Part shown: in pieces, positions 4,959 through 20,052 of the stretch
Layout of the letters: every line of letters starts with the position of its first letter
How positions within the stretch are numbered: the stretch's first letter is position 1
DNA from: Desulfuromonadales bacterium
GTDB lineage: Bacteria > Desulfobacterota > Desulfuromonadia > Desulfuromonadales > UBA2197
Length of the DNA stretch: 58,886 nt
Reading direction: 5' to 3'
Assembly: GCA_034370465.1 (NCBI GenBank)
Contig: JAXMLA010000192.1
Location: 1 to 58,886 of the forward strand
The notes under the pieces: generated by a model
Told to the model about the DNA's origin: nothing
Seen by the model: the letters and a program-made list of their open reading frames with translations, nothing else
Databases searched by the model: none
Translations under genes and position numbers: made by a program

Positions 4959-4973
4959 CAATTGTCGTTGCCT

Positions 4974-5014: not shown

Positions 5015-5021
5015 CTACCGC

Positions 5022-5840: not shown

Positions 5841-5841
5841 T

Positions 5842-6674: not shown

Positions 6675-6741
6675 GCGCTCCGGTCCTTTCCAATGACGGG
6701 AGGGGAGACCGGATCCGGCCTCCCCTCCTCTTGACAAAAAC

Positions 6742-8478
6742 CTACCAGTTATAGACCGAATCGAGTTCCTCATCCGTCATCGAGAAGACCTGATTATGAG
6801 GAGCGATCGGGTCGGTGTAGAAGTAGCGCGGCAGCCGGTCGTGCGCCGCGGTGAAGCCGGCCCGGGTATTGAAGTCGCGCTCGGCCGAGAGGACGGTCTT
6901 GCCGAGGGCAACGACGCCGTCGCCGGTGAGCTCGGTGCCGTAGAAGGCATTGAGCATGTCGAGGAGCGCCTGGAAGGTCTCGGGCTGATCGAGGATGGCA
7001 AAGGCGATAAAGAGGCACATGCCGGTGGAGTCGATCGCCGCGGTGGCGATCTGCAGGTTGCGGGAGAGCTCGATCTGTCCTTCGGTCTTGAGCGGATCGA
7101 CATCGCCGCCGACCTTGAGGATGTTGGTGGCGATGGCATAACCGGCAGTGTGGTCGGCGCCCTGGGTGGTGGTGGCGTAGGTGACGCCGATCCCCTGGAT
7201 CGGACGGGGATCGTAAGCCGGCATCGCCTGCCCCTTGACGGTCGGCACCTTCTCGACGCCGAAGACTTTGCCGGTGATATCGGCACCGCTGGCGAGGATG
7301 CGGCCGAGGGGGGTCCCCTTGCCGACTTCCTCCATCAGGCGGATGGCGCCGGCGCGGTCGCCGAACTCGATGAGGCCGGCATCCATGGCGACGCCGATGG
7401 CGACCCCCATGTCGATGGTATCGACGCCGAAGTTGTCATCCATGAAGTCGAGCTGGGCCACGGTGTCGAGATCGTCGATGCCGCAGTGGCCACCGTGCGA
7501 CCAGACCGTCTCATATTCGGGCTGTTTGGTCAGGTAGTTGCCGTCTTTGTCGTTGTAGATCCCCGAACACTGGATGACGCAGCCGCGATGGCAGCCGTGG
7601 GTGGCAGAGCCGCCGCGTTTGATCTCCAGTTCGGCCTGAGCTTCGCCGCTGAGCTTGGCCGACCCTTCGAAGACCCCGGATTTGAAGTTGCGGGTCGGAT
7701 AGCCGCCGGCTTCGTTGAGGACGTTGGTGAGGACGTTGGTGCCGTAGGCCGGCAGCCCTTCGCCGGTGACCGGATGCTTGCGCAGTCCCTCGACGAACTT
7801 GCGGTTGGCGTCGCGATACTTCTCCGGATCCTGCGGCGGCCGCTGCTTGCAGCCGGCATCGTCGAGGATGATCGCCTTGACCCGCTTCGAGCCCATGACC
7901 GCACCGACGCCGCCGCGGCCGCAATGGCGGGTGGGACGGAGTTCTGGATCGGTACAGGCGATGGAGGCGATGTACAATTGCCGCTCACCCGCCGAGCCGA
8001 TCGACATGTATGCGACCTTGTCGCCGTACTCTTCACGCAGTTTGGCAACCAGCGGGTAGTTGTCCATCAACTTCAGACTGTTATCAACGATGACCTTGAC
8101 CCCGTCCTTGCTGACGTGAATCTTGTAAAGGTCATCCCCTTCCGGCTTCCCTTCGAGGACGATGGCGGCGTAGCCGATGCGGGCGAGGACCTGGGCAGCC
8201 TGGCCGCCGGCGTTCGACTCCTTGATCGTCCCGGTGAGCGGGCTCTTGCAGCCGACCGAGAGGCGGCCGGTCATGGCGCCGGTGGTACCGCTAAGCATCC
8301 CCGGAGCGATGACGAGCTTGTTCTCGGCGCCGAGGGGGTGACAAAGCGGATGCACCTCTTTGCTGACCATTAGCGAGGTTACTGCCCGACCGCCAAGACC
8401 GGCGTACTCGCCGACCGGCTCGGTCGTTACTTTCGGGCCACCTTTGGCCCCCATGTCGATTCTGACTATTTTGTCCAT
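6742..8478 (-). CDS. aor: Aldehyde:ferredoxin oxidoreductase, tungsten bis-pterin AOR family
   Basis: KSPLTGTIKESNAGG, GRGGVGAVMGSK, CHRGCVIQC, EYET, DDNFGVDT, YDPR, DSTGMCLF; linked to Tup and pterin genes. Confidence 0.95.
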   Translation of the reverse strand: MDKIVRIDMGAKGGPKVTTEPVGEYAGLGGRAVTSLMVSKEVHPLCHPLGAENKLVIAPGMLSGTTGAMTGRLSVGCKSPLTGTIKESNAGGQAAQVLARIGYAAIVLEGKPEGDDLYKIHVSKDGVKVIVDNSLKLMDNYPLVAKLREEYGDKVAYMSIGSAGERQLYIASIACTDPELRPTRHCGRGGVGAVMGSKRVKAIILDDAGCKQRPPQDPEKYRDANRKFVEGLRKHPVTGEGLPAYGTNVLTNVLNEAGGYPTRNFKSGVFEGSAKLSGEAQAELEIKRGGSATHGCHRGCVIQCSGIYNDKDGNYLTKQPEYETVWSHGGHCGIDDLDTVAQLDFMDDNFGVDTIDMGVAIGVAMDAGLIEFGDRAGAIRLMEEVGKGTPLGRILASGADITGKVFGVEKVPTVKGQAMPAYDPRPIQGIGVTYATTTQGADHTAGYAIATNILKVGGDVDPLKTEGQIELSRNLQIATAAIDSTGMCLFIAFAILDQPETFQALLDMLNAFYGTELTGDGVVALGKTVLSAERDFNTRAGFTAAHDRLPRYFYTDPIAPHNQVFSMTDEELDSVYNW

Positions 8479-8510
8479 TCCTGCTTCTCCTTTACCGTGC
8501 CAAGGTGTAG

Positions 8511-8607
8511 AAGCTCCTTTCCACCAGGGAGGCAGTGCCGTTTCCAGCACCACCCATTGGCCCTTCACCTTGGGGTCATCCCTTTAGGCAACCAGGCTCG
8601 GAGTTTG
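8511..8607 (-). ncRNA. Moco/Tuco RNA motif riboswitch in the aor leader
   Basis: AACTCCGAGCC...CCTAAAGG...GGCCAATGG-GTGGTGCTG GAAA CGGCACTGC-CTCCC TGGTGGAAAGGAGCTT; same architecture as 4856..4958. Confidence 0.85.
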
Positions 8608-8867: not shown

Positions 8868-10286
8868 TTATTCGGACTGCAGATCGAGGCGGTAACTGGC
8901 AAAGGTCTTCAGGCGCCAACAACCGCTAAAGGCGCCGCTACCGTAGGCAAGCTGTTCGAGAAAGTAGTAGAAGATAAAGAGCGGCAACGCCAGCCGCGGC
9001 TGACGTACCTGATGATCGACAATCGCCACCCCGCCGAGCGCCAGGAGGACCAGCAGGCCCAAGGGCGGATAAAGGCAGCTGACGACGAGGAGCGGCACCA
9101 GGTAGTAGCGCAGCAGATGGTAACCGAGATAGTAAGCGAGGCTGGCGATCGTCCGGGCGCGGGCGAGGAGGATCTTGCCGCTGGCGAGGGTCACCCCCTG
9201 GGCGCGGATACGGCGCCCGGTCAGGGCGAGATCGCCGAGGAAAAGGAGGAGGGCGGGGAGGAGGGGCCACAGGGAGCGCCCGACCAGCGCCAGGGCGAGG
9301 AGGCCGAGGATCGTTGTCAGCAGCGGCGGCAGCAGCATCTTCTTGCCGCGCACCGGATGGAGCTGCTGCAGCATCCCTTCCGAGGTGCCGTAATCGAAGC
9401 GCCGTTTCATGAAGGGCCAGAGACGGCTGCGGTGGGCATGACAGACCGAGCCATGCGGCAGGTAGACGATGCTGTGGCCGGCGTCGCGCAGCCGCCAGGT
9501 GAGATCGACATCCTCGCCGACCTGCAGTTCGGCGCGAAAACCGCCGGCTGCGACGAAAGCTGCGCGCCGCAGCAGGAGATTACAGGAGGGGAGGTAGAAG
9601 GTATCGCCGCCGGCGCTGCCGCTCATCGCCCGGCGACCGAGGTTGAGGCTCGACATCACCGCTTCGTAGCGATCGAGGGGGACGGACGAGTGCATGCCGT
9701 CGACCCAGCCGCCGATTGCTGCCACCTGCGGCGTCGCAAAGGCCGGCAGGAGTTCGCGCAGCCACGACCTTGAAGCGGTGCAGTCCGAATCGATAAAGGC
9801 GAGAATTTCACCGCTGGCAACTTGCGCGCCGCGGTTGCGGGCCGCGGCCGGGCCGCCGCCGGTCGCCCCGGAATGAACCAGCCGGGCGCCGAGGTCAACG
9901 GCGACCTGCGGGGTGGTGTCGCTGCTGCCGTCGTCGACGACGATGACCTCCAGGCGTTCGGACGGGTAATCGAGGGCGGCAAGGGACTCCAGACAAAGGC
10001 GCAGATCGACGGGGCGGTCCTTGACCGGGATGATGATGCTGACGCGGGGCAACTCGGCTTCGGCCAGCAACGGCCATTCACTGCTGACGAAGCCCCGCTT
10101 GGCGAGTCGCTCTAAAACCGTCGCTTCAGCAGCGGAGGCCGGGGTGACGCTGGCTTGTTGCAGACGGCGGGCGAGGCGGAGCAGGGGTTTGTTCAGCTGG
10201 ACCAGGCGCAGGGGCCGGGAAGCGACGAGGAGTCCGCCGTCCCCCTGCTCCGCGATGGTGATCCCTGGCGCCAGCCGGTAATTCAT
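8868..10286 (-). CDS. mftF: Mycofactocin biosynthesis glycosyltransferase (GT2)
   Basis: N-terminal GGLLVASRPLRLVQLN, VIVVDDGS, GPAAARNRG, FIDSDC, YLPSCNLL, VGEDVDL, YGTSE; last gene of the mft operon. Confidence 0.9.
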   Translation of the reverse strand: MNYRLAPGITIAEQGDGGLLVASRPLRLVQLNKPLLRLARRLQQASVTPASAAEATVLERLAKRGFVSSEWPLLAEAELPRVSIIIPVKDRPVDLRLCLESLAALDYPSERLEVIVVDDGSSDTTPQVAVDLGARLVHSGATGGGPAAARNRGAQVASGEILAFIDSDCTASRSWLRELLPAFATPQVAAIGGWVDGMHSSVPLDRYEAVMSSLNLGRRAMSGSAGGDTFYLPSCNLLLRRAAFVAAGGFRAELQVGEDVDLTWRLRDAGHSIVYLPHGSVCHAHRSRLWPFMKRRFDYGTSEGMLQQLHPVRGKKMLLPPLLTTILGLLALALVGRSLWPLLPALLLFLGDLALTGRRIRAQGVTLASGKILLARARTIASLAYYLGYHLLRYYLVPLLVVSCLYPPLGLLVLLALGGVAIVDHQVRQPRLALPLFIFYYFLEQLAYGSGAFSGCWRLKTFASYRLDLQSE

Positions 10287-11179
10287 GACGATTCGCTGCC
10301 GATCAGGCCGGCGTTGGTGAAGATCTCCAGCAGCCGTTCCACGGTCGCTTCGCACTCGAGGGTCTGGAGTTTCCCGGCGCGAGGCTTGATGCCGCCGGAG
10401 AGGAGAGCGAGGATCCGCTCAAAAGCCGGCAGGTTGGCATCCGGGGTCACGGTCCGTTGCGGGTTGGGGCGGGGAAAGGCGCAAGGCCCCTTGCCGAGCA
10501 GGGCAGCGGCGGCGCCGATTGCACTCGCCGGCAGACCGAGTTCGGGGAGCCCCCAGAGTTCGAGGGGGGCCGCCAGCGCCGCCATCAGCCCCGGTTGATC
10601 GGGATAGCGTGGGGTGCAGCTGTCGGCCTCGATGAGCAGGGCGCAGGGGAGCGCCGCGATGACCTTCTGGCGCGCGCCGCGATCACATTTGCGCAGCGCT
10701 TCGACACCGCGTTCATGATGCCTCAGCTCCACCGTGGCGCTGAGGCAGGGAATGTCGAGGCGGGCCGCGGCCAAAGCCAGGGTCGGATCGTCGCCGCGAT
10801 CGAGGAGACGGCTGCCGGTGAGGATGAGATCCGGCGCCAGGATCTCGAGGATCCGCCCGCTCAGGCGCGCCGCCGAGACCACGTCGCCGCCGGCAAAGGC
10901 CGAGTTCCAGACGCGAATCGCGCGACCGGCGCCCATGGCGAGGGCGATGCGGAGATGATTATCGAGGCGCTGCGGGCCGATGGCGACCGCTATGACTTCA
11001 CCTCGGTGCGCTTCGGCCAGGCGCAGCGCCTGCTCCAGGGCCGCGAGGTCAGCCGGGTTGGCGATGCGGCGCAGGCCGCGTTCACTGACGCTGTAGCCGT
11101 CAGCGGTGAGTTGTACCGGCGGGCGCGGGTCGCAGGTTTCACGCAGCAGAACAACTATTTTTAACGGTTTATCGTTCAT
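10283..11179 (-). CDS. Electron transfer flavoprotein beta subunit / FixA family (divergent)
   Basis: ANPADLAALEQALRL, ALAMGA, PDLILTG, PRY. Confidence 0.85.
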   Translation of the reverse strand: MNDKPLKIVVLLRETCDPRPPVQLTADGYSVSERGLRRIANPADLAALEQALRLAEAHRGEVIAVAIGPQRLDNHLRIALAMGAGRAIRVWNSAFAGGDVVSAARLSGRILEILAPDLILTGSRLLDRGDDPTLALAAARLDIPCLSATVELRHHERGVEALRKCDRGARQKVIAALPCALLIEADSCTPRYPDQPGLMAALAAPLELWGLPELGLPASAIGAAAALLGKGPCAFPRPNPQRTVTPDANLPAFERILALLSGGIKPRAGKLQTLECEATVERLLEIFTNAGLIGSESS

Positions 11180-11191
11180 TGGATGTGCTCC

Positions 11192-11488
11192 CTAGGTCAG
11201 GCGGTAGGAGACGCCAAAGCCGCCTTGGGGGTAGCGCCAGCGGGTGAAGGCGTCGCGGTGGCAGACGACGTAGCAGGTACCACACTCCAGACAGCCATCG
11301 TGGACAAAGGTCAGCTTCTGGCTCGCTGCATCCCAGCTGTAGCAGCGCGCCGGGCAGGCGACCGTGCAGGCCCGCTGCTCGCAGCCGACACAGATCGCGG
11401 TGTCGACAACGATATGCGGCTCGCGATCGATGGCGAAACTGGTGTAGTCAAAAATCTCGTCGGGATTGATCTTCATAGGGCTCTCCAT
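11192..11488 (-). CDS. fixX: FixX-like ferredoxin
   Basis: CVGC...CTVACPARCY, GCLECGTCYVVC, WRYPQGGFGVSY. Confidence 0.9.
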   Translation of the reverse strand: MESPMKINPDEIFDYTSFAIDREPHIVVDTAICVGCEQRACTVACPARCYSWDAASQKLTFVHDGCLECGTCYVVCHRDAFTRWRYPQGGFGVSYRLT

Positions 11489-12771
11489 CCGGCGTAAACA
11501 TCGGCCAGCAGATTCTTCAGGCCGATCTTCTCCTTGGCGGCGCGGAGGACCATTTTGGTCATGGTCTCCTTGGGGGTGCCGTCGATCCGGTAGATCTCGT
11601 CCATCAGACCGCAGATCAGCTCCGGGTATTTATTATAGATCCGGTCGTTATGGAGCATGTGCGGGGTGCGGCGGTACAGGTTGAGATCCTTGAGGACGTA
11701 ACTCTCCTCCAGCTTCCGCCGGTAAATGGCCAGCCCCGTCTTGCTGAAGTTCTTGTTCTGATGCGCGGCAATCACCGCCTGCGCGGCGATAACCCCGGAC
11801 TGGGTGGCGAGGTTGATCCCCTCCAGGTTGAGACCGGTGACGATGCAGAGCGCCGCGGCATCGCCGGCGACGAGGATTCCGTCGCCGACCAGCTCCGGCA
11901 CCATGCCGTACCCCCCTTCCGGAACGAGGTGGGCGGAGTATTCAAGGAGGCGGCCGCCGCGCAGCAGCTTGGCAATCTGCGGCTGCTCCATGAAGTCGTT
12001 GAGGAGGTCATAAGGGGTCTTGCTCCCGGCGCTGAGACTGGAGAGGTGCATGACCAGGCCGAGGGAGAGGGAATCGTAGTTGGTGTAGAGGAAGCCGCCG
12101 CCGCGCACCCCGGCCGTGCAGCCGACGAGCTCGTTGGAGGCCCCCTGATCGCGGACCAGCCCGAAGCGATCGTCGATGACCTCCTTCGGCATATCGATGA
12201 GGGCCTTGACCCCGACTGCCAGATGCGAGGGGTCGAACTTGGGACGGCGCAGTCCCGCCTTCTTGGCGACAAAGGAGAGGACGCCGTCGGCGGCGATCAC
12301 CACCGGCGCCCGCAGCGAAGAGCCGTCGCGCAGCAGGGTCACGCCGACGACCTTCCCTTTCTCGATGATGACATCATCGACGGTGCTGCTGCAGAGGAGC
12401 GTCGCCCCGGCCTTGACCGCTTCTTCGGCGAGCCAGCGGTCGAACTTGGGGCGGCTGATGGTGTAACCGTTGTAGGGGGTGCGGTCCGAGGCGGCGGTGT
12501 CGAAGTTGACGTTGAAACTCGCCTCGCCGGTCATGAAGGTCAGCGATTTCTTGACGATGTGCCGCTCGAGCGGTGCCTGATTCCAGAAATCGGGAAAGAC
12601 CTCTTCAAGGGCGGTGAGGCGGTGCAGGACGCCGCCGAACATATTCTTCTCACCGGGGAAGGAACCGCGCTCGAGAAGAGCGACATCGAGGCCGGCCCGG
12701 GCCATGGTCAAAGCCGCGCTGGAACCGGCCGGACCGGCTCCGACGACGATGGCATCAAATGTACTCTTCAT
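11473..12771 (-). CDS. fixC: FixC-like FAD-dependent ETF:quinone oxidoreductase
   Basis: VVGAGPAG, ERGSFPGEKNMFGG, AADGV, EYSAHLVPEGG, GDAA. Confidence 0.92.
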   Translation of the reverse strand: MKSTFDAIVVGAGPAGSSAALTMARAGLDVALLERGSFPGEKNMFGGVLHRLTALEEVFPDFWNQAPLERHIVKKSLTFMTGEASFNVNFDTAASDRTPYNGYTISRPKFDRWLAEEAVKAGATLLCSSTVDDVIIEKGKVVGVTLLRDGSSLRAPVVIAADGVLSFVAKKAGLRRPKFDPSHLAVGVKALIDMPKEVIDDRFGLVRDQGASNELVGCTAGVRGGGFLYTNYDSLSLGLVMHLSSLSAGSKTPYDLLNDFMEQPQIAKLLRGGRLLEYSAHLVPEGGYGMVPELVGDGILVAGDAAALCIVTGLNLEGINLATQSGVIAAQAVIAAHQNKNFSKTGLAIYRRKLEESYVLKDLNLYRRTPHMLHNDRIYNKYPELICGLMDEIYRIDGTPKETMTKMVLRAAKEKIGLKNLLADVYAGWRAL

Positions 12772-13796
12772 GCGCCACCTCCTTGAGCTGACTTGACCCG
12801 CGCAATCAGTAGCGGCAGCACTTCGCGCAAATCAGCGACGAACCCTTCGTCGGCATTGGGGAAGATCGGCGCCTTGGCGTCGCTGTTGACGGCAATCACC
12901 TTCTTTGCTTCCTTGATGCCGCCGAGATGATGCATCGAACCGGAGATCCCCAGGGCGACATAAAGGCGCGGCGCCACGGTCTCGCCGGTCTGTCCGACCA
13001 TCCGTTCGAAACCGCACCGCCCGAGGTCGTAGACCGGGCGGGTGACGCCGAGGGAGGCGCGCAACAGACGGGTCAACTCTTCGACCTGGGCGAAACCCTC
13101 TTCATTACAACCGAGACCGGCGCTGATGATGACCTCGGCATCGACGACGTCGACGGTCTGCGGATCGGGCGCAATCCGCTCGATGATCCAGGTCGGTCCG
13201 GCGAGGACCGGCTGGGAACTGCGCCAACGTTTCACTTCCGGCACAAAGCGCTGCATGCTCGGCAGGACGACGGTGCTGAGGATGCGGGGATGGATGGTGA
13301 GAATCAGCGGCCCCTGATTCTCCCAGGTTTTGGTCTCGACCACCTGCACGCCGAGAGCGGCGCGCGTCAGGCTCAGGGTCGCATCATCCCGCTGGTAAGC
13401 GAGGGCTTCGGTGAAGAGCGCTCCGGACAACTCCGCCGCGAGGAGCGGCGCCAGCGATGCGCCGAGATCGTTATGCGGCAAGAGGAGGAGGCGGACGCCA
13501 CTGGCCGCAGCGGCGGCGGCGAGGAGCCGCCCTTGCGCTTCCAGGGAGTCAGCAACCTCGGGGCCGGCCTCGATCAGGGTCAAAGTCGGGGTGCCGTAGG
13601 GGGCGAAATCGTTCAGAGGCGGCGCTTCCGCACCGGCAAAGGCGATGGCCGACCATTCCCCGCCGAGAACCCTGGCGAGGCGCGCGGCCTCCGAGAGGAT
13701 CCCCTTGCCGGCGTCGTCAAGTTCGCCTTGGGCCAGATCGACGAAGACCAGAACCGTCGGCGGGGCGGCGCTGCTTGGTGAAATTCGGCTGGACAT
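12768..13796 (-). CDS. Electron transfer flavoprotein alpha subunit / FixB family
   Basis: GVTRPVYD, MVGQTG, LGISGSMHHLGG, AVNSDAKAPIF. Confidence 0.9.
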   Translation of the reverse strand: MSSRISPSSAAPPTVLVFVDLAQGELDDAGKGILSEAARLARVLGGEWSAIAFAGAEAPPLNDFAPYGTPTLTLIEAGPEVADSLEAQGRLLAAAAAASGVRLLLLPHNDLGASLAPLLAAELSGALFTEALAYQRDDATLSLTRAALGVQVVETKTWENQGPLILTIHPRILSTVVLPSMQRFVPEVKRWRSSQPVLAGPTWIIERIAPDPQTVDVVDAEVIISAGLGCNEEGFAQVEELTRLLRASLGVTRPVYDLGRCGFERMVGQTGETVAPRLYVALGISGSMHHLGGIKEAKKVIAVNSDAKAPIFPNADEGFVADLREVLPLLIARVKSAQGGGA

Positions 13797-15757
13797 CAGA
13801 TCTCCCTCCCGACCTGGTGACCTTCCCAGATCGCCATGTCGACACGCCGGGGAGCGACGCAGTCGCCGATGCGGTGGAGTTCCTTGACCTTCCCCTTGAG
13901 GGCGAAGTAGAGATCGTCATCGACCGCCTGGCCCATGGCGAGGACGACGGAGTCAAAGGGGCCCCACTCATCCCACTGGTTGGAGTAGACGTTGAAGCCT
14001 TTGATGACCTTGGCGCCGATCTCGCCGCTCACCTCCATCACCGCGATATCCGGGGTGAAAGAGACCCCTTTGCCGAGGAGGCGCTGGCGGGTGAGATAAA
14101 GGTCCTGGGTCGGGCCGAGTTCGGCGCCGATAAAGAGGCTCGAACAGATGATGTGGACCTTCTTCCCCTGGTTGGCGAGGAATTCGGCGGTGGCGGTGGC
14201 GCGGTGGTGGCCGTCGTAATCGATGAGGCAGACCTTCTGTCCGGCTTCGACCTGCTGATCAAGGATCTGCCAGACGTTGCAGACCCCCGGGCCATCGGCG
14301 CCGCCGACCGGATGGGGCTTCGGCTTGCTGCCGGTGGCGACGATCACCGCATCGGGAGCGGCCGCCAGGACCATCGCCGCCGTTACTTCGACGTTGTGCT
14401 CGACCTTGACCCCGGCCTTGTCGACCTGTTCTTTTTCATTGCGGATGATCACCCCGAACTCGTCGCGCCCCGCCCCCTTCATGGCAGTGCGCACTTGGCC
14501 GCCGAGGGTGTCGTTGCGATCGAGGAGGGTGACATCGTGGCCGCGCCGGCCCGCCATCTTCGCCGCCCACATGCCGCCGGGGCCGCCGCCGATGACCATG
14601 ACCTTCTTGGCGATCGCCGCCGGTTTCAGCGTCCCTTCCCCCCACTTCTTCTCCAGACCGACCGCCGGGTTCTGCACGCAGCCGAGGGAACGGTTGATCC
14701 CCATGCGGCCGATGCACCCCTGATTGCAGGCGATGCAGTAGCGGATATCGTCGAGCCGTCCTTCCTGGGCCTTCTTCGGCAGGAAAGGATCGCAGATCAG
14801 CGCCCGGCACATGCCGATCATGTCGGCCTGGCCGGCGGCGAGGACCTTCTCGGCCATCACCGGATCGTTGATGCGGCCGGTGCAGAAGACCGGAATCTTC
14901 AGCTTCTCGCGCATGCCGGCAGCGAGGGGGATGGTGTAGCCAAGCGGGGTATGCATCGACCCTTCGACGAGGTAAAGGTTGTAGAAGGTGGCGATGGAGA
15001 GATCCATGAAGTCGATGAGACCGCTCGCTTCCAGAAGCGCGCCGATCTCCTGCACCTGGGCAAGATCGAGGCCGCCGGGGATCATCTCGTCGGCGCACAT
15101 GCGCACCCCGAGGGTGAAGTCGTTGCCGACCGCCTTGCGCACCGCGGCGATGAACATCAGCGGCGCGCGCATGCGGTTCTCCAGGGAGCCGCCGAATTCA
15201 TCCTGGCGGTAGTTGGTCAGCGGCGACAGGAACTGCCGCGCCAGGCTCGAATGGCCGAACTGGAGCTCGACGCCGTCGAAACCGCCCTGGCGGACGTGCT
15301 CGGCGCTGATCGCGAAGTAGCGGCAGACCTCCTCGATATCCTCGATCTCCATCGCCTTGGGAGTCTCACGGAAGAGGATATCGGGGACCGGGCTCGGCGC
15401 CCAGACCGGCAGGCGCGAAATGCTGCCGTCGCACTGCTGGCCGTTGTGATTGAGCTGGCAGAACATCTTGGTGTCGTATTGATGGACGAAATCGGTAATT
15501 TTCCGGAAGCCGGGGATGACCTCGGGATGGAAGGCTTCGACCAGCTTTTCATAAGCGGTGTCGGTCGGATGGACGCTCATCTCCTCGGTGGTGATCAGAC
15601 CTGCCCCCCCCTTGGCCCGCTCGCCCCAGTAATGCAGATGCCGTTCACTCGGCAGGCAATTTTCGGCAAAGTTGGTCAGATGCGGCTGGAAAGAGATGCG
15701 GTTTTTCACCGTCACTTTGCCGATTTTCTGTGGAGAGAAGAGATTGGGGAAGATCAT
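13796..15757 (-). CDS. Mycofactocin-system FadH/OYE family FMN/4Fe-4S/Rossmann oxidoreductase
   Basis: OYE barrel (RAKGGAGLI, GFDGVEL, QFLSPLTN-R-DEFGGSLENR), CIACNQGC-X11-C cluster motif, GGGPGG; directly after mftC. Confidence 0.9.
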   Translation of the reverse strand: MIFPNLFSPQKIGKVTVKNRISFQPHLTNFAENCLPSERHLHYWGERAKGGAGLITTEEMSVHPTDTAYEKLVEAFHPEVIPGFRKITDFVHQYDTKMFCQLNHNGQQCDGSISRLPVWAPSPVPDILFRETPKAMEIEDIEEVCRYFAISAEHVRQGGFDGVELQFGHSSLARQFLSPLTNYRQDEFGGSLENRMRAPLMFIAAVRKAVGNDFTLGVRMCADEMIPGGLDLAQVQEIGALLEASGLIDFMDLSIATFYNLYLVEGSMHTPLGYTIPLAAGMREKLKIPVFCTGRINDPVMAEKVLAAGQADMIGMCRALICDPFLPKKAQEGRLDDIRYCIACNQGCIGRMGINRSLGCVQNPAVGLEKKWGEGTLKPAAIAKKVMVIGGGPGGMWAAKMAGRRGHDVTLLDRNDTLGGQVRTAMKGAGRDEFGVIIRNEKEQVDKAGVKVEHNVEVTAAMVLAAAPDAVIVATGSKPKPHPVGGADGPGVCNVWQILDQQVEAGQKVCLIDYDGHHRATATAEFLANQGKKVHIICSSLFIGAELGPTQDLYLTRQRLLGKGVSFTPDIAVMEVSGEIGAKVIKGFNVYSNQWDEWGPFDSVVLAMGQAVDDDLYFALKGKVKELHRIGDCVAPRRVDMAIWEGHQVGREI

Positions 15758-15795
15758 GATCAAGGCTCCTGGAGATATATTTCGGTTTGACCGGG

Positions 15796-16833
15796 TCAGG
15801 CGGCGGCCTTGGCCGCGTCGGCGATGGAGGTGACGCAGCGTTCCAGACACTCGGGATCGCCGCCGCTGAGATCGTTCTTGAGATGCCAGGCGACCGCCGG
15901 ACAACCGCCGTGGCACTGGTCGAAGCGGGTGCACTCCTCACAGGAGTGGATGCGCAGGGAACGGAACGATTCGTAGATCTCCGAGCTGTCCCAGATCTGC
16001 TGAAAACTCTGGTCGCGCAGCGATCCGGCGAGGAAACGGTCGGTCTGCAAAAAGGCACAGGGGTACATGTTGCCGGTCGGGCCGACACAGCAGGTGAGTT
16101 TGGCCGCGCCGCAGAGATTGAGCCCCAGCCCCTGTCGCTCTTGCGAGGTCAGGGAGAAGAAGCTGTCGCCGGTCCGGACATCGCCGCTCTTGGCCAGCCA
16201 GTCGGAAAATTCGAGGAGCTGGCTCGGGGTCGGGCGCAGATCTTCCCAGTTGTCGGCGCCACGGCCCGAGGGACGGAAGCGACTGACCCGCAAGGAGACG
16301 CCGAGGGACTGGGCGAGTTCGTACATCGCCGGAATCTCGCTGGCATTATGGGTGGTCAAAACCGTATTGATGCTCGTCGGGATCGACGAGGCTGCGAGAA
16401 GCTTGACCGCCTCGGTCGCCCGGGCAAAGACTCCCGAGCCGCGCACGGCGTCACAGGTCGAGCTGGTGGCGCCGTCGAGGCTGACCTGGATCGCTACCAG
16501 GCGGGTCTGCGACAAGCGGGCCACGCGCGCCGCATCGAGGAGGGTGCCGTTGGTGGAGATACAGGTCATGATGCCGCGCTGATGGCAGGCGTCGAGGATC
16601 TGCTCGAAGTCGGGGCGCATGAAGGGTTCGCCGCCGCCGAAGTTGATCTGGAAGACTCCGGCCTGATGCACCTCCTCGACCAGAGCGAGGGCCTCGGCAG
16701 TGGTCAATTCGTCCTTTGCCGCTTCCCCGGAAGCGGAGAGACAGTGACTGCAACGCAGATTACAGAGAAGGGAGACCTCCCAGGTCAGATTGACCGGCGA
16801 GCGCAGCCCCTGTTCAACAAAGCGGTTGCTCAC
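15796..16833 (-). CDS. mftC: Mycofactocin radical SAM/SPASM maturase
   Basis: P-NLTWE, CNLRCSHCLS, QINFGGGEP, CGAAKLTC, YPCAF, C-X2-C-X5-CHGGC, DPEC. Confidence 0.95.
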   Translation of the reverse strand: MSNRFVEQGLRSPVNLTWEVSLLCNLRCSHCLSASGEAAKDELTTAEALALVEEVHQAGVFQINFGGGEPFMRPDFEQILDACHQRGIMTCISTNGTLLDAARVARLSQTRLVAIQVSLDGATSSTCDAVRGSGVFARATEAVKLLAASSIPTSINTVLTTHNASEIPAMYELAQSLGVSLRVSRFRPSGRGADNWEDLRPTPSQLLEFSDWLAKSGDVRTGDSFFSLTSQERQGLGLNLCGAAKLTCCVGPTGNMYPCAFLQTDRFLAGSLRDQSFQQIWDSSEIYESFRSLRIHSCEECTRFDQCHGGCPAVAWHLKNDLSGGDPECLERCVTSIADAAKAAA

Positions 16834-17071
16834 GGAGGAACCCCCTTTCCAGTAGTTTGGTCATGAAGTTGCGCAGTACCTCTTCCTGCCGGACGTTCAA
16901 CCCCGGCGGGAGTTCATCCCGGCTGCGGGCTACGGCAAAGAAGTCAGGGGGGAGGAGACTGCCGGTTTCGGCGAAGAGAAGGCGCGGCCCCCGGGAATCA
17001 TAAAACAGGAGGCCGAACCCCTCTTGCCGGACGCGGCAGGCGGGGTGCAGCTGGATGCCTGCCGCCGCCAT
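16814..17071 (-). CDS. mftB: Mycofactocin precursor-binding chaperone (RRE)
   Basis: LHPACRVRQEGFGLLFY...RLLF; lies between mftA and mftC. Confidence 0.9.
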   Translation of the reverse strand: MAAAGIQLHPACRVRQEGFGLLFYDSRGPRLLFAETGSLLPPDFFAVARSRDELPPGLNVRQEEVLRNFMTKLLERGFLREQPLC

Positions 17072-17072
17072 C

Positions 17073-17189
17073 TTAGTAAACTCCGCAGATGCCGTCGATG
17101 GCGAGCTCTTCGACCTGAATCTCGTTCAGAACCAATGCCTCTTCGCATACTTCGTTTGCCTGCACTTCAACCTCACATTTTGTTTCCAT
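17073..17189 (-). CDS. mftA: Mycofactocin precursor peptide, variant type, 38 aa
   Basis: METKCEVEVQANEVCEEALVLNEIQVEELAIDGICGVY; acidic leader plus IDGxCGVY terminus; RBS AAGGAG. Confidence 0.96.
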   Translation of the reverse strand: METKCEVEVQANEVCEEALVLNEIQVEELAIDGICGVY

Positions 17190-17265: not shown

Positions 17266-17393
17266 GACAGAAACAACGGTTTATTGCGGAACTTCGGCAA
17301 GTTACCCTGCACAGCAAGATCAGTGAATCGTCCCATGTGGGTATTTTCTCGCCACCTTCAGACCGGTTTGCGTGCTCGGCAGGGCCTCAAGCT

Positions 17394-17426
17394 GTGGCCA
17401 TTTTCCCCAGTGGGATTTTTTTCTAC
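17394..17426. promoter_or_regulatory. Paired 16-bp putative enhancer sites
   Basis: GTGGCCATTTTCCCCA-g-TGGGATTTTTTTCTAC, ~130 bp upstream of -24. Confidence 0.65.
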
Positions 17427-17549
17427 AAAAAAATCAACCCGTGTTCTGTTGCCCCTGGGCGATTCCCGTCGATTACGGAATAAAAAGTGCAAAATATAGT
17501 TTTTTACGAAACAGACCACCGCGACAGCCTGAAACCGGAAGGAGTCTTG

Positions 17550-18041
17550 ATGAGCGAAGAGCATTCGCACTGTAGTTACTGCGGCGGGAAATTCCGCGCG
17601 GCCGCGCCTTGGCCAAGAACCTGCCCGGCCTGCCACCAAACCAGCTACCGCAACCCCTTGCCGGTGGTCGTCACCCTCTTGCCGATCGACGCCGGACTGG
17701 TGGTGATCCGGAGGAATATCGAGCCGAGCAAGGGGACCCTGACGCTGCCGGGGGGCTATCTCGATATCGGTGAAACCTGGCAAGAGGGGGCACGGCGGGA
17801 GCTGTGGGAAGAGACCGGCATCGCGATTACGGCCGGGGAGCTGACCCTCTACGATGTGCAGAACGGCCTTGATGACACCCTGGTGATCTTCGGACTGGCG
17901 ACCCCGCAACCTCGCGCCGTGCTGAAACCTTTCCGTTCGGAAGAGACTCAGGAAGTCGTCCTGATCGAAACGCCGATAACGCTCGGATTTTCCATGCATA
18001 CCCGCGTCGTCGAAAGATATTTTACCACTCTGCGGCCCTGA
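17550..18041 (+). CDS. NUDIX hydrolase with N-terminal zinc ribbon
   Basis: CSYCG...CPAC and Nudix box GYLDIGETWQEGARRELWEETGI. Confidence 0.9.
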   Translation: MSEEHSHCSYCGGKFRAAAPWPRTCPACHQTSYRNPLPVVVTLLPIDAGLVVIRRNIEPSKGTLTLPGGYLDIGETWQEGARRELWEETGIAITAGELTLYDVQNGLDDTLVIFGLATPQPRAVLKPFRSEETQEVVLIETPITLGFSMHTRVVERYFTTLRP

Positions 18042-18069
18042 TCCGGCGGATGCCAAGGCGGTTCAGCGG

Positions 18070-20052
18070 TCAGCCCCGGCAGATCGGCAGCAGCACGGTA
18101 AATTGCGACCCTTCCCCGTCCCGGCTCTCCAGACGGATCTCACCGCCATGGCGCTTGACGATACTGTAGGTCAGGGCCAGACCGAGGCCGACCCCCTTGC
18201 CGACCTCTTTGGTGGTAAAGAACGGCTCCCAGATCCGGTCGATGATCTGCTCGGACATGCCACAGCCGTTATCCCGGATCAGCACTGAGACCATCTCCGC
18301 ATCGACCTGATCGGTGGTGATCTCCACCAGCCCTTCGCCGCTGAAGGCCTGATGGGCATTGACGAGGAGATTCATGAAGACCTGACGCAATCCCGAGGAG
18401 TCGCCGAGGACGCGGGGGAGGTCGGGCTTGAAGTGGGTGACAACCTGGATCTGCCGGTAGCTCGGCTGGTAGCGGAGGAGCTCAAGGATCTCCTGCAGAA
18501 CCAGATTGACATCGACCTTGACTGCGGCCCCGTCCGATTTCCGGCCAAAGCTGAGGAGATGATCGATAATCCCCTTGCAGCGGTACGACTCCCGGACGAT
18601 GACCTCGAGATAATGCGGGAAGACATCGAGGCGCGGATCCTTTTTCAGGGCCGGTTCATCACGAAAACGCCGCAGCAGGGCTTCAGCGAAGCCGGCCACC
18701 GAGGTGAGCGGGTTGTTGATTTCATGGGCGATGCCGGTGGCGAGGACGCCGATACTCGACATCTTCTCGGTCTGAATCAGATGCATCTCCTGTAGGCGTT
18801 TTTCGGTGACATCGCGAAAGAAGACCAGGGCGCGATTCTTTTCGCCGAGGGCATCCTTGATCGGGGTGGCGGTAATGTCGAGATAGCGGGTCTTTTCCCC
18901 TTCCCGGGCCGAGACCAGCGAGGTATCGACCCGTTCACCGCGCAGCGCCTGTTCGACGGGACAGCCCTGGGACTGGCAAGGCGTGTCGGGATGAAAGATC
19001 TCCCGGCACGAACTTCCCGGCAGGATCTCCTCGGGGAAGAGTTGCGGGCTGATGAGATTGTGGTGCTGCACCCGGCCAGCATGGTCATAGACGGTGATGC
19101 CGTCGCCGATCGAGTCGAAGATGGTCTGCAGTTCGTTGCTTTTGTTGCGCAGATCGACTTCGGCCTGCTTGCGCGCGGTGACGTCCTGGGTCGTGCCGTA
19201 GAGCTTCACCACTTTGCCGGCGCTGTTGACCGAGGGCTCGACGATGGTATCGACCCACTTGGCGCTACCGTCGGCAAAGAGGAGGCGATGTTCGATCTCA
19301 TAACTCTTGCCATGGTCAATGCCGAGACGGAGGTGGTCCATGACGGTGACGAGATCCGCCGGGTGGACGACGCTGGCGAAGGCTTCCTGTGTCATCTCGG
19401 CGCGCGACAGACGCAGGATCCGCAGCAGTTCATCCGAGGCGTTCACTTCGCCGCTGGCAGGATCGAAACTCCAGGAGCCGACATGGGTCATGGCCTGCGC
19501 CTTGGCCAGGTTATATTCGCTTTCGGAGAGCGCCTGTTCGGCCTGCTTCTTCTCGGTGATATCGACGAGGACCGCCAAACACTCCTCCCCGGCTTCGGTC
19601 ACCATCGCCTCGATGCGGACATGCAGGGGCTGATGATGGCCGGTGGCGAGCTGCAGCCGGCAGGTCTCCTTGACATGACTGGCAAAGACCATACGGATGA
19701 AGGCGCTAAAGACGAAGCGGTCTTCGTCAGCGACAAAATCGGCAAAACAGCGCGCGACCAGGTCAGAACGTTCGATGCCGAGCAAACGGACGCCGGTCAG
19801 GTTGACCGAACGGATGTTGCCGTCGTGATCGAAGGTGAAGTAGCCGACCGGAGCGAAATCGTAGAGGAAAGCGTATTTGTTCCGCGAGGCATCCTCTTCG
19901 TCGTGCGACTTGCGCAACGCCTCGATCCTGGTCTCCAACTCCGCCTGGTGAGCCTGACAATCCTGCAGTCGCTTCATGATCCCTGCCTCTGTTTGCGAAA
20001 GGTTGTTGCCGCGCGTCGTCCGGTCATGGCCGAGCCACGGGGAGATCGCCAT
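18070..20052 (-). CDS. Multi-PAS cytoplasmic sensor histidine kinase (start uncertain, 19977-20082)
   Basis: [31 protein letters not shown]-box, NLLVNA, DNGCG, PFFTTK, GLGL. Confidence 0.9.

What the first reader, a model, noticed from the sequence alone, without database searches (positions are those of the whole stretch)
8868..17189. mft operon lacks mftD and mftE; an OYE/4Fe-4S flavoprotein plus FixABCX occupies the slot between mftC and mftF
Seen: order mftA-B-C-OYE-etfA-fixC-fixX-etfB-mftF, mostly with overlapping or near-adjacent junctions; no alpha-hydroxyacid-dehydrogenase-type MftD and no creatininase-type MftE anywhere in the window. Established: MftD performs FMN-dependent oxidative deamination of AHDP with O2 as oxidant in vitro; enzymes with this OYE + CX2CX3CX11C architecture (trimethylamine and histamine dehydrogenases) oxidise amines and pass electrons to ETF. 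Inference: the OYE protein is an O2-independent MftD substitute or the mycofactocinol re-oxidase. Caveat: related OYE proteins also occur in actinobacterial mft genomes that have MftD.
Basis: partly seen in the sequence, partly recalled or inferred. Interest (0 to 1): 0.88.

Follow-up and report, generated by a model that had tools for sequence, protein, structure and literature searches.

The report
Mycofactocin operon with flavoprotein cassette replacing MftD
A groundwater Geobacter-like bacterium makes the redox cofactor mycofactocin from an operon in which the usual oxygen-using enzyme MftD is replaced by an iron-sulfur flavoprotein wired to the membrane quinone pool, and comparison with other genomes suggests that the two are interchangeable.

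Summary
On the minus strand lie mftA-mftB-mftC-OYE_2-etfA-fixC-fixX-etfB-mftF, tightly packed. No MftD, MftE or MftG reaches its family cut-off in the window or in its 92%-complete genome.

The layout is not peculiar to this window. It is the standard mft operon of Desulfuromonadales/Geobacterales: 66 of 80 related loci have OYE_2 right after mftC. The same cassette sits in Streptomyces and haloarchaeal plasmids, where RefSeq already names its genes "mycofactocin system FadH/OYE oxidoreductase 1/2" and "mycofactocin-associated ETF". So the cassette is catalogued, but its role is not.

- All four relatives whose mftC abuts mftF have MftD and no OYE_2, against MftD in 5 of 72 OYE_2 genomes.
- Of 12 mftC plasmids, 8 carry the cassette and no MftD, and 4 carry mftD and no cassette.
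- Of 28 informative metagenome contigs, none has both.

OYE_2 lacks an NAD(P)H site, and its EtfB is closest to the partner of trimethylamine dehydrogenase. The best reading is an O2-independent dehydrogenase, linked to quinone through ETF, that supplies the MftD step and perhaps mycofactocinol recycling. The loss of MftE is a separate trait of the lineage. Nothing here is biochemically tested.

The parts
17073..17189 (-). mftA, the mycofactocin precursor peptide (38 aa, C-terminus IDGICGVY)
   Evidence: TIGR03969 38.4 bits against a cut-off of 25. ATG at 17189 preceded by GGAGA.
16814..17071 (-). mftB, the chaperone that binds the precursor
   Evidence: TIGR03967 53.3 bits against a cut-off of 33.
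15796..16833 (-). mftC, the radical SAM/SPASM maturase
   Evidence: TIGR03962 355.2 bits against a cut-off of 265. 75-88% identical to 80 Geobacter/Desulfuromonadales loci.
13796..15757 (-). OYE_2: FMN (OYE barrel) / 4Fe-4S / ADP-or-FAD flavoprotein with no NAD(P)H site in its third domain. Proposed dehydrogenase acting at C3 of the mycofactocin core.
   Evidence: TIGR03997 961.5 bits against a cut-off of 793. Solved relatives: 6qkg 'NCR' 330 bits, FadH 261, TMADH 227.5, histamine dehydrogenase 217. Residue comparison. Over the cut-off only in mftC-positive genomes, 13 of 401.
12768..13796 (-). etfA/fixB-like large subunit of the electron transfer flavoprotein
   Evidence: Best family is mft_etfA NF038209, 137.7 bits, below its cut-off of 240. 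Solved relatives: CarE, C. difficile EtfA, T. maritima EtfA.
11473..12771 (-). fixC-like FAD oxidoreductase (ETF:quinone oxidoreductase type)
   Evidence: NF007450 398.7 bits and NF007542 FixC 394 bits, both below their cut-offs.
11192..11488 (-). fixX-like ferredoxin
   Evidence: NF011993 FixX 53.4 bits, below its cut-off of 166.
10283..11179 (-). etfB/fixA-like small subunit of the electron transfer flavoprotein
   Evidence: Best family is mft_etfB TIGR04503, 76.8 bits, below its cut-off of 200. Best solved relative is 1o94_C, the ETF beta chain of the trimethylamine dehydrogenase-ETF complex, 95.9 bits. The zipper peptide reads D-R-G-D-D-P-T, not the bifurcating DGDTAQ.
8868..10286 (-). mftF, the mycofactocin glycosyltransferase
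   Evidence: TIGR03965 379.1 bits against a cut-off of 280.
17487..18041 (+). NUDIX hydrolase (NAD+ diphosphatase-like), divergent from mftA. Its region is conserved next to mftA in most related loci.
   Evidence: PF00293 48.4 bits. The best NCBIfam hit is NAD(+) diphosphatase, below its cut-off. Its antisense ORF ('unk232') matched the region before mftA in most of the 80 loci. A NUDIX gene also sits beside mftA in L097.
6742..8568 (-). Aldehyde:ferredoxin oxidoreductase (tungsten type) directly downstream of mftF. Likely part of the same alcohol/aldehyde module.
   Evidence: PF01314 262 bits and PF02730 193 bits. It follows mftF in 34 of 80 related loci.

Best explanation
The five genes between mftC and mftF form one electron-transfer module.

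- OYE_2 is an FMN/[4Fe-4S] flavoprotein. I propose that it removes a hydride from C3 of the mycofactocin core.
- With the MftC product AHDP (3-amino) as substrate, this gives the imine. The imine hydrolyses to the 3-keto compound premycofactocin. This is the reaction that MftD performs elsewhere.
- OYE_2 has no NAD(P)H site. Its electrons leave one at a time through the cluster to a non-bifurcating EtfAB. From there they go through FixCX, an ETF:quinone oxidoreductase type, to menaquinone. No O2 is needed.
- Mycofactocinol differs from AHDP only in having OH instead of NH2 at the same carbon. The same enzyme plausibly also re-oxidises the reduced cofactor. That would explain why a whole respiratory-type chain is dedicated to it, and why MftG is absent.

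Shown: gene identities, order and conservation; the strict link of OYE_2 to mft genomes; the near mutual exclusion with MftD.

Inferred: the substrate, the direction of electron flow, ETF as the partner, and quinone as the acceptor.
For: 1. Cassette and MftD are alternatives.
- All four Desulfuromonadales loci with mftC directly followed by mftF lie in genomes with MftD (620-667 bits) and no OYE_2.
- MftD is found in only 5 of 72 genomes with OYE_2.
- In the phylum sample, 0 of 17 mftC genomes have MftD and 13 of 17 have OYE_2 over the cut-off.
- All 8 of the 12 mftC plasmids that carry the cassette have no MftD on the whole plasmid. The other 4 have annotated mftD.
- Within Streptomyces plasmids the two layouts are mftABC-OYE_1-OYE_2-etfA-fixC-fixX-etfB-(SDR)-mftF-mftE and mftR/G + mftABCDEF.
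- Among metagenome contigs, 7 have OYE, 21 have mftD and 0 have both.

2. The MftD-only rows sit at separate places on the MftC tree: 5 changes, of which the well-supported branches force at least 3. The swap therefore happened more than once.

3. The cassette sits in the slot between mftC and mftF, where mftD-mftE lie in the canonical order.

4. OYE_2 over the cut-off occurs in 13 of 401 genomes of the phylum, and all 13 are mftC-positive.

5. The third domain of OYE_2 reads CLIDYDGHH, with no Gly-rich dinucleotide loop. This is as in trimethylamine and histamine dehydrogenase and unlike FadH, and it is conserved in 72 homologues. The best solved relative of EtfB is the ETF beta chain that docks on trimethylamine dehydrogenase.

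6. In other Desulfobacterota families FixCX is replaced by a multihaem cytochrome c plus an FeS/CCG oxidoreductase, still between etfA and etfB. The constant logic is OYE to ETF to a membrane acceptor.

7. MftG is absent from 17 of 17 and 5 of 5 genomes searched. A 2025 paper leaves open what replaces MftG in the roughly 25% of mftC genomes that lack it (PMC11778925, passages seen).
Against: - Five genomes have both the cassette and MftD. In L044 mftD follows mftF in the same operon, though with a 1-bp deletion in a long-read assembly. The two are therefore not strictly redundant.
- One 100%-complete genome (G369) has mftABCF with neither MftD nor OYE_2. Three fragmented genomes also show neither.
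- The phylogenetically paired test was not significant: too few independent pairs, median p = 1.
- The residues that bind amines in trimethylamine dehydrogenase are not conserved. Cys30, Tyr60, Trp264, Trp355 and Asp267 correspond to Leu, Glu, Leu, Met and Val.
- The closest solved enzymes by score, 6qkg 'NCR' and FadH, are reductases of C=C bonds; their activities are recalled, not from a call.
- A five-gene chain is more than a once-per-molecule biosynthetic step needs.
- The four cassette-less genomes have MftD but no MftG either. Recycling can therefore be done without either the cassette or MftG.
- Chromosomes of the plasmid hosts were not searched.
- Whole actinobacterial genomes, where OYE_2 is said (recalled from the family description) to coexist with MftD, could not be sampled.
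- No biochemistry exists.
Confidence: 0.5

Rival explanations
1. The cassette is only a mycofactocinol:quinone oxidoreductase, an anaerobic counterpart of MftG. It re-oxidises reduced mycofactocin and feeds the electrons through ETF and FixCX to menaquinone. AHDP deamination is done by an unidentified enzyme, such as a transaminase or another flavoprotein.
For: - A dedicated ETF plus quinone-reductase chain suits a high-flux catabolic role. The chain is kept even where FixCX is swapped for cytochrome c plus an FeS/CCG protein.
- MftG is absent in 17 of 17 genomes. No mftG lies within 12 kb of any of the 7 annotated cassette plasmids, whereas 2 of the 4 mftD plasmids carry mftG.
- The operon is flanked by an aldehyde oxidoreductase, a glycerol-dehydrogenase-type Fe-ADH and a sensor kinase.
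- The cassette coexists with MftD in 5 genomes.
Against: - It does not explain why MftD, rather than MftG, is the gene that alternates with the cassette inside Desulfuromonadales. The four cassette-less genomes have MftD and still no MftG.
- It leaves 67 of 72 cassette genomes, all 8 cassette plasmids and 13 genomes of the phylum sample with no candidate for the MftD step.
Confidence: 0.25
2. OYE_2 is a mycofactocin-linked catabolic enzyme for another substrate, for example an enoyl, dienoyl or aryl-CoA type reductase or dehydrogenase. The ETF chain supplies or removes its electrons. The cassette travels with mft genes because it uses the cofactor, not because it makes or recycles it.
For: - The best solved relatives are 6qkg 'NCR' (330 bits) and 2,4-dienoyl-CoA reductase (261 bits); that both reduce C=C bonds is recalled.
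- Haft's 2011 analysis found that families depending on mycofactocin co-cluster with its genes (PMC3023750, passages seen).
- Many OYE/FeS paralogues exist in these genomes.
Against: - Dependent dehydrogenases are variable in number and sporadic. OYE_2 is single-copy, always inside the biosynthetic operon between mftC and mftF, and alternates with MftD.
- OYE_2 has no NAD(P)H site.
Confidence: 0.12
3. Nothing is missing: canonical mftD and mftE lie in the roughly 8% of this metagenome-assembled genome that was not recovered.
For: The genome is 91.8% complete and in 390 contigs.
Against: - 0 of 17 mftC genomes of the phylum sample have MftD or MftE over the cut-off. These include a single-contig genome and several estimated as 100% complete.
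- 67 of 72 close relatives with the cassette lack MftD.
- The weak creatininase homologue is as common in relatives without mftC, 10 of 19.
Confidence: 0.03

Closest known systems
Canonical mycofactocin pathway (mftA-B-C-D-E-F, with mftG for re-oxidation) of Mycobacteriales
   Same: MftA with the IDGxCGVY end, MftB, MftC and MftF all pass their curated cut-offs. Operon logic and the order of the flanking genes are the same.
   Different: No MftD, MftE or MftG. Five redox genes occupy the mftD/mftE slot. The organism belongs to the anaerobic iron-reducing Geobacter group.
NCBIfam 'mycofactocin system FadH/OYE family oxidoreductase 2' (TIGR03997) with 'mycofactocin-associated ETF alpha/beta' (NF038209, TIGR04503), as annotated on Streptomyces plasmids
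   Same: The same cassette in the same slot: mftC-(OYE_1)-OYE_2-etfA-FAD oxidoreductase-4Fe-4S protein-etfB-(SDR)-mftF. The window's OYE_2 passes the family cut-off.
   Different: The window has no OYE_1 and no mftE. Its ETF subunits fall below the cut-offs of the mft-ETF families, 137.7 against 240 and 76.8 against 200. The families carry names but no assigned function.
Trimethylamine dehydrogenase with its ETF (Methylophilus methylotrophus W3A1, PDB 1O94) and histamine dehydrogenase
   Same: Three-domain FMN/4Fe-4S/ADP architecture. The C-x2-C-x3-C-x11-C motif. The equivalent of His172. A third domain with no NAD(P)H loop. An ETF gene pair alongside, whose beta subunit is most similar to the W3A1 ETF beta chain.
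   Different: No Cys30 for covalent FMN (Leu instead). The aromatic bowl Tyr60/Trp264/Trp355 and Tyr169/Asp267 are not conserved. Overall score is lower than to 6qkg 'NCR' and FadH.
FixABCX / EtfABCX electron-bifurcating complexes (Azotobacter, Rhodopseudomonas, Thermotoga)
   Same: Four-gene content: EtfA, EtfB, a FixC-like FAD protein and a FixX-like ferredoxin. Quinone is the likely acceptor.
   Different: EtfB lacks the DGDTAQ signature of bifurcating ETFs, reading D-R-G-D-D-P-T (PMC8958531, passages seen). All four proteins are below the curated cut-offs. The gene order etfA-fixC-fixX-etfB places the proposed donor OYE_2 upstream, so NADH is probably not the donor.
MftG, the GMC-family mycofactocinol dehydrogenase that links the cofactor to respiration
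   Same: The proposed second role is the same: passing electrons from reduced mycofactocin to the respiratory chain (PMC11778925, passages seen).
   Different: An unrelated fold and unrelated cofactors. MftG is absent here.

Membership tests
Mycofactocin biosynthetic system | Precursor MftA ending in the conserved C-terminal Val-Tyr core (IDGxCGVY) | tested here: met
   The peptide ends IDGICGVY. TIGR03969 38.4 bits against a cut-off of 25.
Mycofactocin biosynthetic system | MftB, MftC (radical SAM/SPASM) and MftF over curated cut-offs and clustered | tested here: met
   53.3 against 33, 355.2 against 265 and 379.1 against 280.
Mycofactocin biosynthetic system | MftD, the FMN-dependent premycofactocin synthase (TIGR03966) | tested here: not met
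   The best hit in the own genome is 107.6 bits against a cut-off of 470.85, and it scores higher as LldD. 0 of 17 mftC genomes of the phylum sample have it.
Mycofactocin biosynthetic system | MftE, the creatininase-family peptidase (TIGR03964) | tested here: not met
   The best hit is 109 bits against a cut-off of 172, outside the cluster. The same weak homologue occurs in 10 of 19 relatives without mftC.
Mycofactocin biosynthetic system | MftG, the GMC oxidoreductase (TIGR03970) | tested here: not met
   0 of 17 genomes, including the own genome, at E <= 1e-20.
TIGR03997 mycofactocin system FadH/OYE family oxidoreductase 2 | Score over the curated cut-off | tested here: met
   961.5 bits against 793.15. 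The sister family OYE_1 scores only 348.3 against 627.9.
TIGR03997 mycofactocin system FadH/OYE family oxidoreductase 2 | Occurs only with mycofactocin genes and next to them | tested here: met
   Over the cut-off in 13 of 401 genomes, all 13 mftC-positive. Adjacent to mftC in 66 of 80 loci.
Trimethylamine/histamine dehydrogenase family | Cysteine for 6-S-cysteinyl FMN (TMADH Cys30) | tested here: not met
   Leu at that position, in the motif PHLTN, conserved in 72 homologues.
Trimethylamine/histamine dehydrogenase family | Aromatic bowl and catalytic triad (Tyr60, Trp264, Trp355; Tyr169-His172-Asp267) | tested here: not met
   Only the His172 equivalent is kept (Q-x-G-H-S-S). The others read Glu, Leu, Met, Gln and Val in the HMMER alignment. 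The residue numbers for TMADH are recalled and were counted on that alignment.
Trimethylamine/histamine dehydrogenase family | 4Fe-4S motif C-x2-C-x3-C-x11-C, and a third domain without an NAD(P)H loop | tested here: met
   CIACNQGCIGRMGINRSLGC. The third domain reads CLIDYDGHH, against VAIIGCGGIG in FadH.
Trimethylamine/histamine dehydrogenase family | ETF as the physiological electron acceptor | not testable with these tools
   There is only gene adjacency, plus the fact that the best solved relative of EtfB is the W3A1 ETF beta chain.
Bifurcating FixABCX/EtfABCX | EtfB zipper signature DGDTAQ (Thr 100% conserved in 216 bifurcating ETFs) | tested here: not met
   The window reads D-R-G-D-D-P-T, with Asp at the Thr position. 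The signature is taken from PMC8958531.
Bifurcating FixABCX/EtfABCX | FixC and FixX over curated cut-offs | tested here: not met
   FixC 394 bits against 610. FixX 53.4 against 166.
NCBIfam mycofactocin-associated ETF alpha/beta (NF038209, TIGR04503) | Score over the curated cut-off | tested here: not met
   137.7 against 240 and 76.8 against 200. These are nevertheless the best-scoring families for both subunits.

The most novel reading that the evidence does not exclude
OYE_2 is a bifunctional dehydrogenase acting at C3. It makes premycofactocin from AHDP without O2, replacing MftD. It also re-oxidises mycofactocinol, replacing MftG. Both streams of electrons go through a dedicated ETF and FixCX into menaquinone. 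Anaerobic iron reducers, some Streptomyces and some haloarchaea would then run a complete, oxygen-independent mycofactocin cycle, with one enzyme in place of two. Where OYE_1 and OYE_2 stand in tandem, the two jobs may be split between them.
Probability: 0.3. Interest if true: 0.8.

Novelty: new variant of a known kind. Interest (0 to 1): 0.62.

Why it matters
Mycofactocin biochemistry has been worked out almost wholly in aerobic mycobacteria. There, MftD has been shown (as recalled; the paper was not held) to use O2 in vitro, and MftG passes electrons to an aerobic-type respiratory chain.

Two questions are open. How do strict anaerobes finish the cofactor? What recycles it in the roughly quarter of mftC genomes that lack MftG? 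The second question is stated as open in PMC11778925.

The comparison made here turns a catalogued but unexplained gene cassette into a specific candidate for both jobs. It shows that the cassette and MftD alternate repeatedly in at least three phyla. It also names organisms and plasmids in which the idea can be tested directly.

If the idea is right, it adds a new enzyme class for a step in making a peptide-derived cofactor, and a new entry point of electrons into the quinone pool of Geobacter-type bacteria that oxidise alcohols.

Tried and rejected
1. Complex prediction of OYE_2 (alignment A2) with EtfB (alignment A3) gave 'no answer'. The median score was 0.50, but one control reached 0.32. 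I count this neither for nor against binding.

2. The ORF at 17358-18056 (minus strand, 232 aa) was first taken for a conserved unknown protein. Its translation is of low complexity. The real gene is a NUDIX hydrolase on the plus strand, so the ORF was dropped.

3. The creatininase homologue on contig C353 was considered as a divergent MftE. It was rejected because 10 of 19 relatives without mftC have the same weak homologue, against 11 of 17 with mftC.

4. The two alpha-hydroxyacid-dehydrogenase-like ORFs on the 2-kb contigs C78 and C2 were considered as a cryptic MftD. They score 98-123 bits against a cut-off of 471, score higher as LldD, and occur only in this genome among the 17. They are unlikely candidates but not excluded.

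5. A phylogenetically paired test of OYE_2 against MftD on the MftC tree lacked power: 5 to 8 pairs, median p = 1. L005 was left out of the tree because it is the same contig as L053.

6. Neighbours of the unlinked mftD genes (L101, L102, L105, L097) show no shared partner gene.

7. Whole genomes of Actinomycetota could not be sampled, because no handle outside the window's phylum was available. Plasmid records and metagenome contigs were used instead.

8. Sequencing runs.
- Small-share holders (under 0.2 of the words) that I did not lay are not used.
- Contigs from RNA libraries of one riverine study lie on mftA-C, OYE_2, etfA and fixC. Two of them bridge the mftC/OYE_2 junction.
- Such contigs do not prove transcription or a single transcript.
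- Bins without cover in the RNA runs are not interpreted.

9. Literature.
- No paper in the held library contains 'mycofactocin' together with 'electron transfer flavoprotein', or those two together with 'mftD'.
- Four papers contain 'mycofactocin' and 'Geobacter'.
- Searches found nothing on the cassette.
- The 2019 review (PMC6449177) and the MftD paper (PMC6716157) are not held. What I say of them is recalled.
- Figure 2 of Haft 2011 could not be seen, only its legend. It shows a Geobacter uraniireducens cluster and may already draw these genes.
- Supplements were not opened.

Full report
**What is in the window**

On the minus strand between 8868 and 17189 lie nine tightly packed genes.
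- mftA is 38 aa and ends IDGICGVY.
- mftB, mftC and mftF all score over their curated NCBIfam cut-offs.
- Between mftC and mftF lie five redox genes.

The first redox gene is a 653-aa flavoprotein. It matches TIGR03997, 'mycofactocin system FadH/OYE family oxidoreductase 2', at 961.5 bits against a cut-off of 793. It carries the cluster motif C-x2-C-x3-C-x11-C.

It is followed by an EtfA/FixB-like gene, a FixC-like gene, a FixX-like gene and an EtfB/FixA-like gene. These four all score below the cut-offs of every named family, although the 'mycofactocin-associated ETF' families are the best hits for the two ETF subunits.

Junctions are overlaps of 1 to 20 nt or spacers of 1 to 38 nt.

**Is anything missing?**

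The window belongs to a metagenome-assembled genome of 390 contigs, 3.28 Mb and 91.8% completeness.
- MftD family model: nothing near the cut-off anywhere in the genome. The best hits are 107.6 and 97.9 bits against 470.85. These two hits are on 2-kb contigs and score better as LldD-type lactate dehydrogenases.
- MftE family model: nothing near the cut-off. The best hit is 109 bits against 172, on another contig.
- The weak creatininase homologue is found in 11 of 17 mftC genomes. It is also found in 10 of 19 relatives without mftC, so it has nothing to do with mycofactocin.
- MftG is absent as well.

**Whose operon is it?**

A scan of one genome per species found 368 stretches that encode an MftC relative. 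The best 80 are 75-88% identical, and nearly all are Geobacter, Geomonas, Geobacteraceae or Desulfuromonadales, mostly from metagenome-assembled genomes. They include Geobacter argillaceus, Geobacter sp. OR-1 and Trichlorobacter lovleyi.

Mapping the window's proteins on these 80 loci gave the following:
- 66 have OYE_2 right after mftC.
- 50 show the whole run through mftF. The other 16 appear to be cut by contig ends, which I did not check contig by contig.
- 10 end just after mftC.
- 4 have mftC directly followed by mftF.
- 34 have the aldehyde:ferredoxin oxidoreductase after mftF, as in the window.

A sample of 401 genomes of the same phylum gave these results:
- 17 have MftC over the cut-off.
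- 0 of the 17 have MftD, MftE or MftG over the cut-off.
- 13 of the 17 have OYE_2 over the cut-off, mostly adjacent to mftC. Three of the other four have truncated or near-cut-off copies.
- Across all 401 genomes, OYE_2 over the cut-off occurs only in those 13.

The architecture is thus the norm for this lineage, not an oddity of this window. Contigs of an independent groundwater study reproduce the order.

The four loci with mftC abutting mftF (L036, L082, L095, L097) lie in genomes that have no OYE_2. All four have MftD at 620-667 bits.

Over all 80 genomes, MftD passes its cut-off in 10. For the ten loci cut after mftC, whole-genome searches found OYE_2 in six and not in four. The table is then:

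| Genomes | Number | With MftD | Which |
|---|---|---|---|
| OYE_2 present | 72 | 5 | L044, L051, L083, L092, L099 |
| OYE_2 not found | 8 | 5 | L036, L082, L095, L097, L093 |

Three fragmented genomes show neither gene.

On a quick maximum-likelihood tree of 96 MftC rows, the MftD-only rows fall at five separate places. Well-supported branches force at least three changes. The paired sign test had too few pairs to reach significance.

MftE is over the cut-off in none of the ten MftD-positive genomes. MftG is found in none of five.

**Beyond the phylum**

Twelve plasmids of PLSDB carry mftC.

Eight of them also carry an OYE_2 homologue at 39-46% identity: six Streptomyces, Haloterrigena turkmenica pHTUR01 and Halolamina.
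- The seven annotated ones read mftA-B-C-(OYE_1)-OYE_2-ETF alpha-FAD oxidoreductase-4Fe-4S protein-ETF beta-(SDR)-mftF-mftE, or a rearranged version in the two haloarchaea.
- They show no mftD and no mftG within 12-14 kb.
- The MftD model finds nothing on any of the eight whole plasmids.

The other four plasmids are Thermomicrobium roseum, Tsukamurella, Streptomyces sp. NBC_00080 and Mycolicibacterium chubuense.
- All four have annotated mftD beside mftC and no OYE gene in the region shown.
- Two of them also carry mftG.

A scan of metagenome contigs centred on the Streptomyces-type MftC returned 80 contigs. Seven have OYE_1 or OYE_2 after mftC, 21 have mftD, none has both, and 52 are too short or carry other genes there.

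The chromosomes of the plasmid hosts were not searched, and contigs are short. These are statements about clusters, not about whole genomes.

**What the proteins say**

The best solved relatives of OYE_2 are 6qkg (deposited as 'NCR'; that this is 2-naphthoyl-CoA reductase is recalled), 330 bits; 2,4-dienoyl-CoA reductase, 261; trimethylamine dehydrogenase, 227.5; and histamine dehydrogenase, 217.

In the alignments:
- The cysteine that binds FMN covalently in the amine dehydrogenases is Leu.
- The aromatic bowl is not kept.
- The His172 equivalent is kept, in a conserved Q-x-G-H-S-S motif.
- The third domain reads CLIDYDGHH where FadH has its Gly-rich NADPH loop. This matches the pattern of the two amine dehydrogenases.

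These features hold in 72 close homologues. The absence of the Gly-rich loop also holds in the 18 more distant ones, a mixed set that includes OYE_1-type copies.

The best solved relative of EtfB is the beta chain of the ETF that docks on trimethylamine dehydrogenase. Its 'zipper' peptide is D-R-G-D-D-P-T. This is neither the DGDTAQ of bifurcating ETFs nor the DDDxNQ of canonical ones, as those signatures are given in PMC8958531. I therefore do not call this a bifurcating Fix complex.

In other Desulfobacterota families the FixCX pair is replaced by a multihaem cytochrome c and an FeS protein with two CCG domains, between the same etfA and etfB. This keeps the logic 'OYE to ETF to membrane acceptor'.

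**Interpretation**

In the canonical pathway MftE releases AHDP, and MftD deaminates AHDP to the ketoamide premycofactocin (PMC11778925, passage seen). That MftD uses O2 in vitro is recalled; the paper was not held.

The cassette and MftD behave as alternatives in the same slot of the operon, repeatedly and in three phyla. Lineages nearly always keep at least one of the two. This is the pattern expected if the cassette can supply the MftD step.

AHDP and mycofactocinol differ only in having NH2 or OH at C3 (recalled chemistry). A dehydrogenase acting on that carbon could therefore also re-oxidise the cofactor. That would explain the dedicated ETF and quinone-reductase chain and the absence of MftG. 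I put 0.5 on 'supplies the MftD step, possibly both roles'.

The main rival is a pure re-oxidase, at 0.25. It fits the electron chain well. It does not explain why MftD is the gene that alternates with the cassette while MftG is absent from both kinds of Desulfuromonadales genome.

Against my reading:
- Five genomes hold both. One is L044, where mftD follows mftF in the same operon. That copy differs from a relative's by a 1-bp deletion, which may be a long-read error or recent decay.
- One complete genome (G369) has mftABCF with neither gene.
- The closest solved enzymes by score, 6qkg 'NCR' and FadH, reduce C=C bonds (activities recalled).
- The paired test was not significant.
- There is no biochemistry.

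The absence of MftE is a separate matter. It holds for the whole order whether MftD or the cassette is present, and the cassette coexists with mftE elsewhere. The peptidase for this lineage remains unknown.

**Known or new?**

[quoted passage not shown] It listed Geobacter uraniireducens and Pelotomaculum among mycofactocin species (PMC3023750, passages seen). The figure that draws the Geobacter cluster could not be seen.
- NCBIfam has curated models for OYE_1, OYE_2 and the ETF pair, and RefSeq uses those names. The cassette is therefore catalogued.
- I found no paper that links it to MftD or assigns it a function. No paper holds 'mycofactocin' with 'electron transfer flavoprotein'. Four hold 'mycofactocin' with 'Geobacter'. 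Searches gave nothing relevant.
- The 2019 review of mycofactocin occurrence is not in the library and may bear on this. Supplements were not opened.
- The 2025 MftG paper states that about 25% of mftC genomes lack MftG, and that what replaces it is open.

**Verdict**

- Interest is 0.62. It remains substantial because the anti-correlation test came out positive and makes two open questions directly testable.

Noticed in passing
window 17487-18041 (+): A NUDIX hydrolase (NAD+ diphosphatase-like) lies divergent from mftA, and the region is conserved before mftA in most of the 80 related loci. Table 4 of Haft 2011 lists an 'NADH pyrophosphatase' among proteins that co-occur with mycofactocin in Rhodococcus jostii. 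A link to the non-exchangeable NAD of mycofactocin-dependent dehydrogenases is conceivable.
   Followed up: partly
window 867-8568 (-): Directly downstream of mftF lies a tungsten-type aldehyde:ferredoxin oxidoreductase. It is followed by a conserved 236-aa protein of no known family (6063-6773), ThiF/MoeB, MoaE, an ABC transporter with a PBP_like_2 binding protein, and MoeA. This looks like a cofactor-supply set for the oxidoreductase. The oxidoreductase follows mftF in 34 of 80 related loci.
   Followed up: partly
window 18070-21965 (-) and 28262-32078 (-): Upstream of the operon lie a multi-PAS histidine kinase, a glycerol-dehydrogenase-type Fe-ADH (NF006941, 457.7 bits, over its cut-off) and an IclR regulator. 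Further on lies a second Fe-ADH with a PAS kinase and a sigma-54 response regulator. These are candidate alcohol dehydrogenases dependent on mycofactocin, together with their regulators.
   Followed up: no
L015:14651-17410; also L007, L016, L017: In other Desulfobacterota families the slot between etfA and etfB holds a multihaem cytochrome c and a 646-aa FeS protein with two CCG domains, instead of FixC and FixX. OYE_2 there is preceded by a second paralogue that is 44-46% identical, probably OYE_1.
   Followed up: partly
OYE_2 homologues in related loci (script): Five of 72 close OYE_2 homologues, and several distant ones, have Asp in place of the second cysteine of the 4Fe-4S motif (CVADNQGC). 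This suggests a cluster ligated by Asp, or a 3Fe cluster.
   Followed up: no
L018 (G369:C211:9000-28999): A genome estimated as 100% complete has mftA-B-C-F with neither MftD nor OYE_2. The cluster is flanked by an SDR, LarB-like and LarC-like genes (nickel-pincer cofactor), an Fe-ADH and two DUF362 FeS proteins. How the cofactor is finished there is unexplained.
   Followed up: partly
L044:19047-20200: Here mftD lies directly after mftF, in an operon that also holds the full cassette. It differs from a 90%-identical relative (L101) by a single-base deletion that shifts the frame. This is either a long-read error or a gene caught in decay.
   Followed up: partly
L125:14708-16873; L112 mftF (19760-22111): One ORF of 721 aa on an Actinomycetota-like metagenome contig has the MftF match at residues 211-679. 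An MftE-like match lies just before the MftF match on that contig, so this may be an MftE-MftF fusion; I did not check whether the MftE-like match falls inside this ORF. The Haloterrigena mftF is likewise very long (2352 nt). On that contig OYE_1 and OYE_2 stand with no ETF genes nearby.
   Followed up: no
G000 contigs C78 (L001:744-1760) and C2 (L002:1228-1968): Two short FMN-dependent alpha-hydroxyacid-dehydrogenase-like ORFs sit on 2-kb contigs. Among the 17 mftC genomes of the phylum sample, only this one has them. They are far below the MftD and LldD cut-offs. They may be contamination or a divergent enzyme.
   Followed up: partly
G199 (L010 and L011), G258 (L012): Two genomes of one genus carry two mft clusters each. 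One has the OYE cassette. The other is plain mftA-B-C-F followed by an aldehyde oxidoreductase.
   Followed up: no
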